Part shown: positions 57,700 through 60,137 of the stretch, in pieces
Layout of the letters: the number at the start of each line of letters is the position of its first letter
How positions within the stretch are numbered: position 1 is the stretch's first letter
Source of the DNA: Escherichia coli
GTDB taxonomy: Bacteria; Pseudomonadota; Gammaproteobacteria; Enterobacterales; Enterobacteriaceae
NCBI RefSeq assembly: GCF_030013595.1
Contig: NZ_CP122768.1
Direction: 5' to 3' (one strand)
Length of the DNA: 64,000 nucleotides
Translations under genes and position numbers: made by a program
Notes under the pieces: generated by a model
The model's database searches: none
What the model was told of the DNA's origin: nothing
What the model saw: the letters and a program-made list of their open reading frames with translations, nothing else

Positions 57700-58158
57700 C
57701 TATTTCAGGCACTGAGTACGGATATATTCCTGAAGCGTTCTCAATGCTGCCTGGTCGCTGATGATTCCGTCTCTGATACCGAGAACGTTTCGTCCAGCAA
57801 CTGGAGAGAGTTCGACGCTGGCATCATTGCCCACGCGGGCGGTGGCGGTGGCTTCACGCACGGAGCCTGGACAGGTGGCGTTGATCCGCAGGCGCTTACG
57901 ACCAGCGGTAACATCAGCACGCAGAGTTTCATTTTCAGCTCTCGCATCGGCTAATTCCCTCGAGTATTTTGCATCGAGCGCAGCAACATCGTGCTGGCGC
58001 TGCTGCATATCAGTAATGGTGGCGTTCGCCAGCTTCAGCTCACTGACTTTTTTATCGCGCTGCGCTTTGTAAGTGATGGCGTTATCGCGGTAATGATTCA
58101 GCCCCAGACTAAGCACACCACAGACCACCAGCAGAATAACGGTAAACGCGGAAAGCAT
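57700..58158 (-). CDS. Rz: i-spanin Rz
   Basis: Product ...[66 protein letters not shown]... matches recalled lambda Rz closely; start set to internal Met (152 aa). Confidence 0.85.
57741..57932 (-). CDS. Rz1: o-spanin Rz1 (lipoprotein embedded in Rz, +1 frame)
   Basis: [17 protein letters not shown] lipobox plus proline-rich [10 protein letters not shown], as in lambda Rz1; entirely inside Rz. Confidence 0.7.
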
Positions 58159-58318
58159 TCGGTTTATGCTCACCCCAGCATCCCCGACGAAGACAACATC
58201 ATCCAGCCCAGGGAAAGAAAAAGAGCAACCAGCATTAGTGAAAATGAAATGCCGACAATTACACAGAGGATCTTCGCCAGAGTTATGAGTTTGTCTGATA
58301 TCATTGGTCACCACTCCA

Positions 58319-58888
58319 TCAATCCGTCTTTGTGATTTTTCCTTTGCCTGTATCAGCCAGGACAAAATCAATCAGCAGATTCGCTTCATTTATCAACGTG
58401 CGAATTTTTGATACATGTGCAGCTTTAACCGACTTCCACTCACTCAGCCCGGTACCAAACAAACTGGCGATGTTTTTATCCCGTTTCATGTCAGCGCATA
58501 CCTGATTGAGTTCTTCCATCACGCTCATTCGACGGGGATTAACGACAAAACCCTTCGTCCAGTATTCATAGAGAACATCGTCGCACTCTTCCTGATACTG
58601 AATGACCCTGTCGCGGATTTCAGGTTTAACTTTGTTGGGATTGATGGTTTGTAACCAGCCCGCAAGTTTTCGAAGTGGCAGGGATACCATATTGCGTCGT
58701 TTCCCATCCTCAGCAACCATAACGATTTCCGTTATAGTTGACGCAAAACGCTGTCTTAACTTAGCCAACTGTGATTGCCAGGCTAGCCCCATCCCCGCAA
58801 CAACAGGCTTCATGTGAACGTATGGCTCGCCATTATGGTTAACCACATAAAGAGAGTTGCCGTGAAACGGCACGGTCATCATATTCAT
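58319..58888 (-). CDS. Rha/antirepressor-like phage regulatory protein
   Basis: 189-aa ORF between endolysin and Rz; N-terminal region resembles Ant/Rha-type regulators (weak, by recollection). Confidence 0.45.
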
Positions 58889-59099
58889 CGGTTATTTCCT
58901 TTTAGTGATGAACCTTGTCTCACAGGAATCCGGCCCACAGAAAAGCACCGATAGCCAAACCGGTATCCTCAAGGGTCATCCTGAAAGGTTCTGTGTTGTG
59001 AGATGCGCGTGAGATGCGCAGAAATATTCAGATATGAAAAAGCCCACGCCTTTACGTGGGCCAGAAGGCCACTCGTTGCAGCCTTGTGTTTTGTTTTTT

Positions 59100-59483
59100 T
59101 TATCGTTTCAACTGAAAGTGAGGCCCGTCCTTCAACGTTTTCCAGTCCCCGCCCCATTCGATGGCGATTCCCAGCTCTGTGGCGGCCTGCTTAAATGCCT
59201 GCGCGATTTTCTCGTACAGAGGCCAGTTCCATGACACCTGGCTGCCAATGTAAGCAACAACATCCACCGCATCACCTGTCAGGTGGCGGCTGTTCATGGT
59301 CTGGCTCTTGCCTTCTGCAACCAGTTGTTTCTGGCGCTCTTTCGTGCGCAGACCTTCCGTAATACCGAAATCAACCTCCGTCAGCTCCAGCGCACGGCGA
59401 ACGACAGCAACCAGCTGTGGTTTTACGCCCTCCAGATTTTTCTCGCTCCGACGGCTGAATCTGAATTTACCCGACATACTCAC
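59100..59483 (-). CDS. endolysin, peptidase M15 (L-alanyl-D-glutamate endopeptidase type)
   Basis: 127-aa ORF with conserved His/Asp zinc-ligand context (SRHLTGDAVDV...DGPHFQ); follows holin-like genes. Confidence 0.7.
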   Translation of the reverse strand: MSMSGKFRFSRRSEKNLEGVKPQLVAVVRRALELTEVDFGITEGLRTKERQKQLVAEGKSQTMNSRHLTGDAVDVVAYIGSQVSWNWPLYEKIAQAFKQAATELGIAIEWGGDWKTLKDGPHFQLKR

Positions 59484-59770
59484 CTCCGTAATGAAAGGAT
59501 TTTTGAAACGTTCCCACGAGCACGAATCACCAGCACGCAGAACAGCAGATTAAGCCCCACCGCCAGCCAGTTCGCCGCTAACGGACGACCACACAGATAG
59601 CTGAGTGGCGCAAAGGCATAAAGCAGCATCAGCAGCCAGGCCAGCCATGACATCAGCGGTTTATGTCTGGAATCACAGCGACGATAAAAAAAGAGCGTCA
59701 GCACGATAACCGTGCATAACGCCACATTCAGCAATCCGGGAAGGTTACTTAACATTGCCGCCTCCTCCAC
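59480..59770 (-). CDS. holin/antiholin-like small membrane protein
   Basis: 96-aa ORF with two or three TM segments, overlapping endolysin start. Confidence 0.5.
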   Translation of the reverse strand: MEEAAMLSNLPGLLNVALCTVIVLTLFFYRRCDSRHKPLMSWLAWLLMLLYAFAPLSYLCGRPLAANWLAVGLNLLFCVLVIRARGNVSKILSLRR

Positions 59771-60137
59771 CCCGCAGGCGGGAGAACAAGCCGGACACCA
59801 GTGATGCGATATCCTGCTGGTGGATGAACGACAGAATCTTCACCGACACCACGGATACCAGCACCGCACACAGCGCATCTGCCGATGTGCCGTCATAACC
59901 TGTTTTTGCCGCTATCCAGGCAGACAGCACACGCGCTCCCAGCACGCCGACAATGAACGACACCAGAAAATGCGCCGCCACCCGCCAGGCTGAAAGCGCC
60001 TGCGGCATCGTTGCCACAAATAACGCCCCGGCGAACGCACCAAACACAATCCCGAAATCCGTTCCGGTAAACAGCCCGAATACCGTCGCCCCGCCGAGCG
60101 CCGCTGCCGTACCGGAACCGGATAAGGGTTCAGACAT
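59745..60137 (-). CDS. putative holin
   Basis: 130-aa Gly/Ala-rich multi-TM protein at the head of the lysis cassette. Confidence 0.5.
   Translation of the reverse strand: MSEPLSGSGTAAALGGATVFGLFTGTDFGIVFGAFAGALFVATMPQALSAWRVAAHFLVSFIVGVLGARVLSAWIAAKTGYDGTSADALCAVLVSVVSVKILSFIHQQDIASLVSGLFSRLRGGGGGNVK

What the first reader, a model, noticed from the sequence alone, without database searches (positions are those of the whole stretch)
57700..60137. Lysis cassette with M15-peptidase endolysin and a Rha-like regulator inserted before Rz/Rz1
The order is holin-like (130 aa), holin/antiholin-like (96 aa), a peptidase-type endolysin (not a lysozyme or transglycosylase), a 189-aa Rha/antirepressor-like gene, then Rz with embedded Rz1. 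The regulator between endolysin and spanins is a non-lysis insertion in the cassette.
Basis: partly seen in the sequence, partly recalled or inferred. Interest (0 to 1): 0.3.

Follow-up and report, generated by a model that had tools for sequence, protein, structure and literature searches.

The report
Phage lysis genes carrying Ant cassette
The cell-bursting genes of this E. coli prophage are real and ordinary, and the regulator-like gene lodged among them is a known, swappable accessory cassette; the new point is that it has a conserved folded RNA leader, shared with many such cassettes (including P22 rha), that no RNA catalogue I searched lists.

Summary
On the minus strand lie two holin-family genes, an M15/LAS zinc endopeptidase with every catalytic residue intact, a 189-aa Ant-like gene, then Rz with embedded Rz1. 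The arrangement is not new. The ant–Rz/Rz1 half is the 933W/Stx-phage module, where ant was annotated between R and Rz in 1999. The holin–holin–M15 half is the phiP27 module. The exact sequence sits in 15 annotated, mostly porcine, E. coli genomes.

"Rha-like" is wrong at family level: the protein is P22_AR_N + ORF11CD3, full length and under purifying selection.

That leader is a family. It precedes Rha, KilA-N, Bro-N, Ant and HNH genes in at least 120 viral contigs and about 47 Enterobacterales species, including rha of P22 and ES18. Compensatory base changes support its fold. It scores on the sense strand only and has no Rfam 15 match. Its core equals the 89-nt P22 RNA "P22F" (2026, function unknown). 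The mosaic joint of this cassette lies inside the leader. Its function is inferred, not shown.

The parts
59745..60137 (-). Holin-family gene 1 (130 aa), with 3-4 hydrophobic spans
   Evidence: Pfam Phage_holin_8 E=4e-23; PHROG 198 holin E=4e-42. Hydropathy. 90% DNA identity to phiP27 L28.
59480..59755 (-). Holin-family gene 2 (91 aa from ATG 59755; 96 aa from GTG 59770), with three hydrophobic spans. It overlaps the end of gene 1 by 11 nt.
   Evidence: Pfam Phage_holin_3_7 E=5.5e-21; PHROG 217 holin E=6e-37. A GGAGGAGG ribosome-binding site lies upstream. Equivalent to phiP27 L29.
59100..59477 (-). Endolysin: an M15C/LAS zinc L-alanyl-D-glutamate endopeptidase, 125 aa, with no signal or SAR sequence
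   Evidence: PDB sequence hits 23ri 3e-45, 8q2g 1e-44, ChiX 5opz 6e-43 and T5 endolysin 2mxz 3.5e-25. H65/D72/H120, D117 and R44 align with the ChiX ligands. No hydrophobic span.
59036..59062 (-). Intrinsic-terminator-like hairpin (9 bp, 6 GC) plus a T-run, just after the endolysin stop codon
   Evidence: Consensus scan. A hairpin plus T-run lies at the same place upstream of the leader in 79 of 94 related loci. ES18 annotates a terminator there.
58886..59036 (-). Conserved structured leader RNA upstream of ant. Sub-parts: H0 hairpin 59020-59004; GAACC box 58993-58984; P1 5' strand 58981-58970; inner hairpin 58964-58947; GGGCCGG 58936-58930; P1 3' strand 58917-58907; SD to ATG 58903-58886. The stretch equivalent to the P22F RNA is 58980-58895.
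   Evidence: Covariance model R1 gives 87.5 bits, the only hit in the 64-kb window, on the sense strand (the window sequence was in the seed alignment). Compensatory changes: 22 of 35 pairs; 91% of cells paired against 42-48% for slid controls. No Rfam match. Homologous to the leader of P22 rha, which contains P22F.
58319..58888 (-). ant: a 189-aa protein with P22_AR_N (residues 5-113) and ORF11CD3 (122-163), predicted cytoplasmic
   Evidence: Pfam and PHROG 524 'anti-repressor Ant' E=2e-108. 92% amino-acid identity to 933W Ant. dN/dS 0.06-0.20. The model of the N-domain (pLDDT 70-87) weakly resembles the APSES (Mbp1) and DACH/Ski DNA-binding folds.
58170..58304 (-). Small ORF of 44 aa with a single hydrophobic span, lying between ant and Rz
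   Evidence: The intact 44-codon ORF is kept in 933W, Stx2a_1447, Ss-VASD and JNEC-KY179, while the other two frames carry stops. PHROG 4906 E=4e-23. RefSeq annotates it as WP_000622439. Found in 276 phage records, all Stx, E. coli or Shigella phages. dN/dS 0.3-0.5.
57700..58158 (-). Rz, the inner-membrane spanin (152 aa), with an N-terminal transmembrane span
   Evidence: Pfam Phage_lysis E=3e-38; PHROG 13 E=2e-70. The 223-aa TTG-start ORF in the ORF list is an over-extension: its upstream part has stops in relatives.
57741..57932 (-). Rz1, the outer-membrane lipoprotein spanin, embedded in the +1 frame of Rz. It has lipobox LVVSA|C and a proline-rich mature part.
   Evidence: Pfam Rz1 E=3e-21; PHROG 3198 E=7e-32. 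Sequence read.

Best explanation
This is a working lambda-type lysis cassette in the Q-dependent late operon of a lambdoid prophage of porcine E. coli.

Lysis steps, inferred from the families:
1. One or both holin-family proteins permeabilise the inner membrane.
2. The leaderless M15/LAS zinc endopeptidase then reaches the wall and cuts the L-Ala-D-Glu bond of the peptidoglycan.
3. The Rz/Rz1 spanin pair disrupts the outer membrane.

Between endolysin and spanins sits an accessory cassette that is not part of the lysis machinery. It consists of a terminator, a ~150-nt structured leader RNA, the ant gene and a 44-aa membrane ORF. The same leader heads a whole guild of interchangeable late-region genes: Rha, KilA-N, Bro-N, P22_AR_N/Ant and HNH-AP2. 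These genes prefer two slots, just after the lysis genes or just after Q.

This cassette arrived by recombination inside the leader itself. That event joined a phiP27/pPE4-type holin-M15 module to a 933W-type ant-orf44-Rz/Rz1 module.

Inferred mechanism:
- Q-modified RNA polymerase reads through the terminator.
- The leader folds into a long P1 helix that encloses two hairpins and ends a few bases before the Shine-Dalgarno sequence.
- The leader sets how much Ant is made, by conformational switching and/or by processing into a stable P22F-like fragment.
- Ant is a cytoplasmic protein whose N-domain looks like a DNA-binding domain. It acts on phage or host regulation (antirepressor-like or KilA-like), not on the envelope.

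Shown: gene identities, catalytic residues, the mosaic joints, the leader family and its covariation, its strand, and its taxonomic range.

Inferred: read-through transcription, the leader's regulatory role, and Ant's target.
For: Lysis genes:
- Family matches, solved homologues, and ligands matching ChiX.
- A Q gene at 62463-61801 and a tR'-like terminator at 61723-61694 lie upstream.

Ant as an accessory cassette:
- Absent from phiP27, phiSTEC1575-Stx2k and E. coli 06-00048, which share the holins and M15.
- In pPE4 the same slot holds KilA-N + ORF11CD3.
- The same Ant family sits beside unrelated holin/endolysin types in Photorhabdus, Hamiltonella and Proteus.
- No sigma-70 consensus and no LexA box in the 211-nt gap upstream of ant.

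Leader:
- Conserved across four genera.
- At least 120 viral contigs match a strict pattern.
- Downstream genes fall into Rha, HNH_3+AP2, KilA-N(+P63C), Bro-N, Rha+ANT and P22_AR_N.
- It precedes rha in P22 and ES18 and kilA in phages 2851, 1717 and HK544.
- Covariation: 14 of 39 pairs and 92% paired. With diverged copies: 22 of 35 pairs, score 0.36 against 0.07-0.09 for slid controls, 0 of 500 shuffles as high.
- Sense-strand hits score 38-171 bits, antisense 25 bits or less.
- Many G-U pairs.
- 55 of 64 genome hits were confirmed by the model, all in Enterobacterales. The nine hits outside that order failed.
- Upstream neighbours: about 30 spanins, about 4 endolysins and about 20 Q-type antiterminators among 90.
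- The 89-nt P22F RNA maps exactly onto the P1 domain (PMC13397905).

Joint:
- pPE4 homology runs 60138-58981 and 933W homology 59025-57825. They overlap only within the 5' part of the leader.
Against: - No experiment bears on this locus. Transcription, the leader's function and Ant's activity are all inferred.
- The leader alignments were partly gathered with a pattern that fixes three anchors. A4 was fitted to the model, which inflates pairing counts.
- The window's own copy is a diverged member with a C-U mismatch in P1. Its single-sequence fold is not exceptional (z = -1.85) and differs from the consensus fold.
- P22F was seen in small-RNA libraries of infected cells and vesicles and could be a decay product.
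- The fold match of the Ant N-domain is weak (best E about 0.009), and the C-terminal half is modelled poorly.
- The 933W record itself suggested 'possible regulation of host cell lysis'. I cannot exclude that, least of all for the 44-aa membrane ORF.
Confidence: 0.72

Rival explanations
1. Ant is a true antirepressor. Made late from the Q-dependent transcript, it binds CI-type repressors of this or of co-resident lambdoid prophages. This locks in lytic commitment or cross-induces neighbours, as the trans-acting antirepressors of Salmonella Gifsy phages do. This refines the best explanation rather than excluding it.
For: 48% identity to the P22 Ant N-terminal 126 residues. The PHROG is named 'anti-repressor Ant'. 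Hosts typically carry several copies and several lambdoid prophages, with a median of 4 places per genome. A different Ant of phage 24B speeds derepression (PMC3064807).
Against: It lacks P22_AR_C, and the immI-type controls are not adjacent. The 24B Ant that has a measured effect shares the C-terminal, not the N-terminal, part of P22 Ant. The slot is filled in other phages by KilA-N, Rha, Bro-N or even HNH genes. The N-domain resembles DNA-binding folds. No LexA box, so it is not the SOS-triggered type.
Confidence: 0.25
2. ant and/or the 44-aa membrane ORF belong to the lysis programme. They tune holin triggering or spanin function, as the 933W record suggested.
For: Position inside the cassette in 933W-like phages and beside lysis genes in other genera. 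orf44 is a small membrane protein immediately before Rz and always travels with this ant-Rz module.
Against: Phages with the same holins and endolysin, or the same Rz family (lambda, P22), lyse without them. Ant has no membrane or secretion signal. In Photorhabdus it lies after Rz, and about 20 of 90 leader cassettes lie after Q, away from the lysis genes. orf44 is weakly constrained (dN/dS 0.3-0.5).
Confidence: 0.12
3. The conserved element upstream of ant works as DNA, not as RNA. It would be a recombination hotspot, linker sequence or protein-binding site that promotes cassette exchange, and the apparent structure would be a by-product of inverted repeats.
For: The mosaic joint of this very locus falls inside it. 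It borders many different genes. Both strands of the window copy fold about equally well.
Against: Compensatory changes keep the pairing. Frequent G-U pairs would be A-C on the other strand. The model scores 100-170 bits in sense against 25 or less in antisense. A discrete sense RNA covering exactly the P1 domain exists in P22. Both roles could coexist.
Confidence: 0.15
4. The 189-aa gene is a decaying remnant of a longer P22-type ant, with the C-domain lost and no function.
For: It matches only positions 7-209 of the 317-position PHROG 524 profile and only the N-terminal 126 residues of P22 Ant.
Against: The two-domain architecture of 173-212 aa recurs in all of the best 120 of 2310 homologues across many genera. 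dN/dS is 0.06-0.20. There are 47 invariant columns in a 62-87% identity alignment.
Confidence: 0.03

Closest known systems
Phage 933W and other Stx phages: the S-R-ant-Rz/Rz1 late region (GenBank AF125520; ant annotated in 1999)
   Same: The same leader, ant (92% amino-acid identity), 44-aa ORF and Rz/Rz1, in the same order; 86-88% DNA identity from 59025 to 57825.
   Different: 933W has a class II holin and a lysozyme-type R in place of the two holin-family genes and the M15 peptidase. It carries stx rather than a pertussis-like toxin upstream, and bor downstream.
Stx2e phage phiP27 lysis module L28-L30, also found in phiSTEC1575-Stx2k and Actinobacillus phage pPE4
   Same: Holin-holin-M15 endolysin at 89-90% DNA identity, placed directly after a toxin gene pair.
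   Different: phiP27 and phiSTEC1575-Stx2k have no ant and no leader copy. pPE4 has the leader followed by KilA-N + ORF11CD3.
Serratia marcescens ChiX (chiWXYZ) and phage T5 endolysin: LAS-family L-Ala-D-Glu endopeptidases with solved structures
   Same: Sequence match E=6e-43 (ChiX) and 3.5e-25 (T5). Identical H-x6-D ... D-x2-H zinc site and the Arg. ChiX is also paired with a 3-TM holin and with spanin-like genes.
   Different: ChiX serves chitinase secretion from a chromosomal operon. Here the enzyme sits in a prophage late operon. Its activity is not tested here.
Phage P22 Ant (immI antirepressor)
   Same: The N-terminal domain is homologous: 48% identity over residues 1-126, Pfam P22_AR_N.
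   Different: No P22_AR_C domain; ORF11CD3 instead. Not in an immI region with arc, mnt or sar. Repressor binding is unknown.
P22 rha and its upstream 89-nt RNA P22F (PMC13397905, 2026)
   Same: The leader is the same RNA family, and the window stretch 58980-58895 corresponds to P22F. It sits at the distal end of the lysis genes, before an Iyer-type regulator gene.
   Different: The downstream gene is Rha (PF09669), not P22_AR_N. In P22 it follows Rz/Rz1 rather than preceding it. P22F has no assigned function, and no family or structure was described for it.
Gifsy-1 antQ-isrK-orf45-anrP-isrJ locus (PMC4825925)
   Same: It works alike on paper: an antirepressor-like gene next to late-control genes, preceded by a terminator and a leader with alternative structures that keep it translationally silent until switched. 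About 20 of 90 leader cassettes lie right after a Q-type gene, as in Gifsy-1.
   Different: No detectable homology. Rfam isrK does not hit the leader, and model R1 finds no copy before the gene upstream of isrJ in L128. There is no conserved upstream ORF here.

Membership tests
Lambda-type lysis cassette (holin, endolysin, two-component spanin) | Small membrane protein(s) of a holin family directly upstream of the endolysin | tested here: met
   Phage_holin_8 and Phage_holin_3_7 matches, with 3-4 and 3 hydrophobic spans. Hole formation itself is not testable here.
Lambda-type lysis cassette (holin, endolysin, two-component spanin) | Rz with an N-terminal TM span, plus Rz1 embedded in the +1 frame with a lipobox Cys | tested here: met
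   Pfam Phage_lysis and Rz1. TM span at residues 1-23. LVVSA|C lipobox, with Rz1 lying entirely within Rz.
Lambda-type lysis cassette (holin, endolysin, two-component spanin) | Transcribed from a Q-antiterminated late promoter | tested here: inconclusive
   A Q-family gene and a terminator-like site lie just downstream of it on the same strand. The promoter/qut site was not identified and there are no expression data.
Peptidase M15 / LAS zinc peptidases | Zinc ligands H-x6-D and a distal H, plus a catalytic acid (D-x2-H) | tested here: met
   H65, D72, H120, D117 and R44 align with ChiX His68, Asp75, His123, Asp120 and Arg47.
Phage regulatory protein Rha (Pfam PF09669) | Phage_pRha domain | tested here: not met
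   No match at E<=0.01; only P22_AR_N and ORF11CD3. True Rha genes do follow the same leader in other phages.
P22-type antirepressor Ant | P22_AR_N N-terminal domain | tested here: met
   E=9e-45; 48% identity to P22 Ant residues 1-126.
P22-type antirepressor Ant | P22_AR_C C-terminal domain and a full length of about 300 aa | tested here: not met
   189 aa. The C-terminal part is ORF11CD3. The match to P22 Ant stops at residue 126.
P22-type antirepressor Ant | Binds and inactivates a CI/C2-type repressor | not testable with these tools
   No experiment. No solved homologue by sequence.
Moron (Hendrix-type autonomous accessory unit) | Own promoter upstream and terminator downstream; composition differing from the neighbours | tested here: inconclusive
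   GC is 0.45-0.47 across ant against 0.53-0.56 in the holin/endolysin genes. The terminator-like site lies upstream, not downstream. No sigma-70-like site in the gap.
P22F-type leader RNA (family defined here by model R1) | Long P1 helix enclosing two hairpins, a GGGCNG motif and an upstream GCGC hairpin, on the sense strand directly before the SD of the cassette gene | tested here: met
   87.5 bits over all 159 model positions (the window was in the seed). The near-identical 933W copy, which was not in the seed, scores 82.8 bits. Alignment.
Rfam families (isrK, C4 antisense RNA, others) | Covariance-model match | tested here: not met
   No hit with E<=1 in window 56500-63000. No hit on leader copies in 11 other loci, apart from unrelated isrJ and STnc100 nearby.

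The most novel reading that the evidence does not exclude
The ~150-nt leader is an uncatalogued family of switchable cis-acting RNA with two roles:
- It gates translation, or directs processing, of a whole guild of interchangeable late-region phage genes (Rha, KilA-N, Bro-N, Ant, HNH) in Enterobacterales prophages, including model phages P22 and 933W.
- It serves as the homology patch through which these cassettes are exchanged.

P22F would then be its stable processed core, and the long-puzzling Rha/Ant/KilA genes beside lysis cassettes would share one control logic.
Probability: 0.4. Interest if true: 0.65.

Novelty: new variant of a known kind. Interest (0 to 1): 0.4.

Why it matters
- The protein-coding layout is ordinary. 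It repeats the 933W arrangement, and the exact sequence is already annotated in RefSeq.
- What could matter is the leader. Genes of the Rha/KilA-N/Bro-N/Ant guild are among the commonest unexplained genes of temperate phages. From memory (Henthorn and Friedman 1995), some harm the phage when mis-expressed: rha in IHF-deficient hosts.
- A shared, structured, sense-strand leader in P22, ES18 and the Stx phages gives one concrete, mutable handle on how they are controlled.
- It also explains why different cassettes occupy the same slots, since recombination can occur within the leader.
- In Stx and other toxin-converting prophages these cassettes ride on the same late transcript as the toxin and lysis genes, so their control bears on induction biology.

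Tried and rejected
- **SOS-controlled antirepressor.** No LexA box (CTGT-N8-ACAG, up to 1 mismatch) in the 211-nt gap upstream of ant. Window-wide counts equal chance.
- **Own sigma-70 promoter for ant.** No consensus-like site on the minus strand between 59099 and 58889.
- **Known RNA family.** Rfam 15 gave nothing at E<=1 for the window region or for leader copies elsewhere. Weak isrK and mir hits at E>3 fall on the terminator or the wrong strand.
- **Leader as coding sequence or a conserved upstream ORF.** The ATG of the P1 strand opens 3-, 5-, 8-, 19- or 33-codon frames in different copies, so no peptide is conserved. The P22 record's longer rha start is probably a mis-call.
- **GAACC box pairing with the Shine-Dalgarno sequence.** No support: 73% paired, no covariation, below the shuffles. 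Pairing of the box with the P1 3' strand rests on a single covarying position, so it is suggestive only.
- **The 223-aa 'Rz' ORF and PHROG 3246 in the Rz frame upstream.** Rejected, because that frame has stops in relatives, while the 44-aa ORF in another frame is kept.
- **Protein-based retrieval of ant loci from viral contigs.** It returned only E. coli copies of 89% identity or more, useless for covariation. A DNA pattern was used instead.
- **Sequence search of Ant against PDB.** Nothing found.
- **Nine pattern hits outside Enterobacterales.** Chance matches; the model does not confirm them.
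Full report
**1. What is there**

All genes lie on the minus strand. ORF listing and family scans give the following.

| Feature | Coordinates | Size | Evidence |
|---|---|---|---|
| Holin-family gene 1 | 60137-59745 | 130 aa | Phage_holin_8, 4e-23 |
| M15 peptidase | 59477-59100 | 125 aa | Peptidase_M15_4 9e-13; PHROG endolysin 5e-76 |
| Ant-like gene | 58888-58319 | 189 aa | P22_AR_N 9e-45 + ORF11CD3 5e-7 |
| Rz | 58158-57700 | 152 aa | Phage_lysis, 3e-38 |
| Rz1 (embedded) | 57932-57741 | 63 aa | Rz1 3e-21; lipobox LVVSA\|C |

- Hydropathy gives 3-4 spans in holin 1, three in holin 2, one N-terminal span in Rz, and none in the endolysin or Ant.
- Ribosome-binding sites and overlapping stops and starts are as expected for a translationally coupled operon.
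- Upstream on the same strand lie a Q-family antiterminator (62463-61801), a terminator-like site just after it (61723-61694), and a pertussis-like AB5 toxin gene pair (61413-60195).
- Downstream come the terminase genes.

**2. The endolysin**

- It matches solved L-Ala-D-Glu endopeptidases: 23ri 3e-45, 8q2g 1e-44, Serratia ChiX 6e-43 and T5 endolysin 3.5e-25.
- The ChiX paper gives the zinc ligands as His68, Asp75 and His123, the catalytic residue as Asp120, and the substrate-binding residue as Arg47 (PMC5778951).
- In the alignment these correspond to H65, D72, H120, D117 and R44 here.
- There is no signal or SAR segment, so the enzyme should depend on a hole-forming holin. This is an inference.
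- Which of the two holin-family proteins forms the hole, and whether the other is an antiholin, is not determined.

**3. Provenance and mosaic structure**

- The 2.7-kb region is identical (99.9-100%) in 15 complete E. coli genomes, almost all porcine ETEC or STEC-type strains. It covers at least 80% of the query in 18 of 5426 genomes. RefSeq annotates it there.
- No record among 50,697 phage genomes holds the whole arrangement.
- The holin-holin-M15 half is 89-90% identical to Stx2e phage phiP27 (L28-L30), to phiSTEC1575-Stx2k and to Actinobacillus phage pPE4.
- The ant-Rz/Rz1 half is 86-88% identical to 933W and many Stx phages.
- In 933W the gene is annotated 'ant, putative antirepressor ... 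possible regulation of host cell lysis' and lies between R and Rz.
- ant itself occurs in 697 of 5426 complete E. coli genomes, with a median of four places per genome.
Only the combination with the P27-type lysis genes is particular to this prophage lineage.

**4. The Ant-like protein**

- It is not Rha family: no PF09669 match.
- It shares only the N-terminal domain with P22 Ant (48% over 126 residues). It carries ORF11CD3 in place of P22_AR_C.
- It is not a truncated remnant:
  - The best 120 of 2310 homologues all show the same two domains at 151-212 aa (most 173-212). They span Salmonella, Photorhabdus, Xenorhabdus, Serratia, Proteus, Providencia, Hamiltonella, Sodalis and Arsenophonus.
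  - An 18-sequence alignment at 62-87% identity has 47 invariant columns.
  - dN/dS against five relatives is 0.06-0.20.
- An AlphaFold model is confident only for residues ~10-112 (pLDDT 70-87). Its best, weak, PDB fold matches are the Mbp1 APSES DNA-binding domain (E=0.009) and the Ski/Dachshund domains.
- That agrees with the published prediction (Iyer et al. 2002, from memory and the Pfam notes) that P22_AR_N, KilA-N, Bro-N and Rha are DNA-binding modules. It is not proof.
- The Ant studied experimentally in phage 24B is a different gene. It lies upstream of qut and shares the C-terminal part of P22 Ant (PMC3064807).
- I found no experiment on the lysis-region ant.

**5. Is it an insertion?**

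- Relatives with the same holins and M15 have no ant: phiP27, phiSTEC1575-Stx2k, and E. coli 06-00048, which has a 93-aa ORF of unknown family instead.
- pPE4 has KilA-N + ORF11CD3 in that slot, that is, the same C-terminal module with a different N-terminal one.
- Conversely, the same Ant family sits beside quite different lysis genes:
  - after Rz in Photorhabdus;
  - between a lysozyme and Rz in Hamiltonella, with a KilA-N gene as well;
  - between endolysin and Rz in Proteus.
- So ant is an accessory gene with a strong preference for the distal end of lysis cassettes. It is not a lysis component.

**6. The leader**

*How it was found.* In all those genera about 170-210 nt separate ant from the preceding gene. 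Aligning these gaps revealed a conserved element preceded by a terminator-like hairpin.

*How widespread it is.*
- In one genome per species it hit 64 stretches. The covariance model confirms 55 of these, all in Enterobacterales. They include Xenorhabdus, Photorhabdus, Arsenophonus, Yersinia, Enterobacter, Citrobacter, Pantoea, Morganella, Brenneria and others.
- The nine hits outside that order are not confirmed. That fits the roughly twelve chance matches I estimated by hand.

*What follows it.*
- The ORF that starts about 20 nt after the element is a different gene in different copies: Rha (30 distinct sequences), HNH_3+AP2 (23), KilA-N with or without P63C (about 20), Bro-N, Rha+ANT, P22_AR_N+ORF11CD3, and a few unknowns.
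- Named phages carry it too: before rha in P22 and ES18, directly after Rz/Rz1, and before kilA in phages 2851, 1717, HK544 and ECP1.
- Ss-VASD and strain JNEC-KY179 have two copies flanking Rz, and pPE4 and Hamiltonella have two as well.

*What precedes it.* Among 90 distinct upstream neighbours:
- about 30 are spanins;
- about 4 are endolysins;
- about 20 are Q-type antiterminators.

**7. Evidence that the leader is a folded RNA**

- The consensus has three parts:
  - a small GCGC hairpin (H0);
  - a conserved GARCC box;
  - a long helix P1, with core AUGAGCCUUU/AAAGGUUCAU extendable to about 16 bp. P1 encloses two hairpins and an invariant GGGCNG, and ends a few bases before the Shine-Dalgarno sequence.
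- On 53 sequences, 92% of cells are paired against 38-47% when partners are slid. Fourteen pairs show double changes.
- The pattern had frozen the P1 core, so I added diverged copies found by the model. These pair, for example, AAGCGAGCCU with AGGCUCACUU, and GGGGUGAGCC with GGCUCACCC.
- With them, 22 of 35 pairs show compensatory change. The covariation score is 0.36 against 0.07-0.09 for slid controls, and no shuffle in 500 reaches it. This alignment is fitted to the model and so leans towards it.
- Strand: hits score 38-171 bits on the gene's strand and 25 or less on the other. Several pairs are predominantly G-U.
- It is not coding. The ATG in P1 opens frames of 3 to 33 codons in different copies.
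- Rfam 15 has no match.
- A text search for its core sequence found one relevant paper. P22F, an 89-nt RNA detected in P22-infected Salmonella and its vesicles, has 'no known function' and ends 6 nt before the rha start (PMC13397905).
- P22F maps exactly onto P1 and its contents (L215 2261-2349). The equivalent stretch in the window is 58980-58895.
- The window has a single copy, at 59036-58886.

**8. The joint**

- Homology to pPE4 runs from the holins through M15, the terminator, H0 and the GAACC box, and stops at 58981, the start of P1.
- Homology to 933W starts at 59025.
- The two overlap only in the 5' part of the leader.
- Against E. coli 06-00048, similarity stops at the M15 stop codon (59101) and resumes 24 nt inside Rz (58134).
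- The simplest reading is that a P27/pPE4-type phage carrying some leader cassette recombined within the leader with a 933W-type phage. That event swapped in ant-orf44-Rz/Rz1.

**9. How it probably works**

- *Shown:* the parts and their relationships, as set out above.
- *Inferred:*
  - The late transcript, antiterminated by Q, runs through the toxin genes, holins and endolysin.
  - It then reads through the terminator at 59062-59036 and continues into the leader, ant, orf44 and Rz/Rz1.
  - No separate promoter or LexA box is visible.
  - The leader then determines Ant output.
- Two observations hint at a conformational switch:
  - The GARCC box is a near-repeat of the P1 5' strand, and one of its positions covaries with the P1 3' strand (AU 18, GC 8, GU 2, one mismatch).
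  - An inner segment can pair with either of two downstream repeats. In the window all three segments changed together.
- The discrete P22F species suggests processing at the base of P1.
- The Gifsy-1 isrK-orf45-anrP leader is a working precedent: a silent, switchable leader before an antirepressor-like gene next to late-control genes (PMC4825925). It is not detectably homologous.
- The trigger, the direction of control and Ant's target remain unknown.

**10. The 44-aa ORF**

- Between ant and Rz lies a 44-codon ORF (58304-58170) encoding one hydrophobic span.
- It is intact and of the same length in four diverged relatives, while the other two frames are broken.
- It matches PHROG 4906 and is annotated in RefSeq.
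- It occurs in 276 phage records, all Stx, E. coli or Shigella phages, and is often unannotated.
- Its C-terminal third evolves fast. Its role is unknown, and a link to lysis cannot be excluded.

**11. Verdict**

- The finding as written is correct in observation, partly correct in interpretation, and describes an already known arrangement.
- The added value is the leader RNA family and the recombination joint within it. These are well supported as sequence and structure facts, but their function is untested.

**Limits**

- There are no expression data for this locus.
- The alignments are partly pattern-selected or model-fitted.
- E-values from the short-calibrated model are rough.
- The literature library is incomplete. 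The 933W and rha primary papers were not available, so what I say about Rha and IHF and about Iyer et al. 2002 rests on memory.

Noticed in passing
window 60195-61413 (-): A pertussis-like AB5 toxin gene pair lies between Q and the first holin gene, the slot stx occupies in Stx phages. The A subunit is 241 aa (Pertussis_S1/Scabin-like/Enterotoxin_a). The B subunit has a weak Pertussis_S2S3 match, and RefSeq calls it 'subtilase family AB5 toxin binding subunit'. GC is 0.32-0.40 against 0.53 in the lysis genes.
   Followed up: partly
window 38586-39149 (+): A second antirepressor-type gene in the same prophage (187 aa, AntA/AntB domain, E=8e-27). It is on the opposite strand, inside the tail-gene region. 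No LexA-box-like site was seen next to it.
   Followed up: partly
window 58170-58304 (-): A conserved 44-aa single-span membrane ORF between ant and Rz, unannotated in many Stx-phage records. It is present in 276 phage records.
   Followed up: yes
L215 (P22, BK000583) 2286 versus 2355: The P22 reference annotation starts rha at the ATG inside the leader's P1 strand. The ES18 annotation, the position of P22F and the other leader copies imply that the real start is 69 nt downstream.
   Followed up: partly
L008/L009 2350-2503 and 3719-3874; L005 2685-2836 and 4601-4750; L012 3842-4003 and 4958-5110: Several phages carry two leader cassettes close together: leader-ant before Rz and leader-KilA-N after it, or one copy in front of a gene annotated 'tellurite resistance protein' in pPE4. 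Candidatus Arsenophonus triatominarum has at least seven copies (L267-L273).
   Followed up: partly
L128 1605-1680; L101 4388-4590: The Rfam sRNA isrJ lies 66 nt upstream of a leader copy. STnc100 lies between a leader-HNH cassette and the holin gene, downstream of a Q-type antiterminator gene, so it looks like the late-operon leader RNA.
   Followed up: no
window ~63741-63896 (-) and ~53125-54561 (-): RefSeq annotation of the near-identical strain cq9 places a hokD type I toxin gene upstream of the Q region. It also names the gene after the large terminase 'anti-CBASS protein Acb1 family', at the position where a portal gene is expected. Neither was checked.
   Followed up: no
window ~18800-43400 versus cq9: The window is 99.4% identical to strain cq9 from Q to the terminase genes, but only 92-97% identical, with gaps, across the tail region. 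The prophage's late half is therefore itself mosaic between strains.
   Followed up: no
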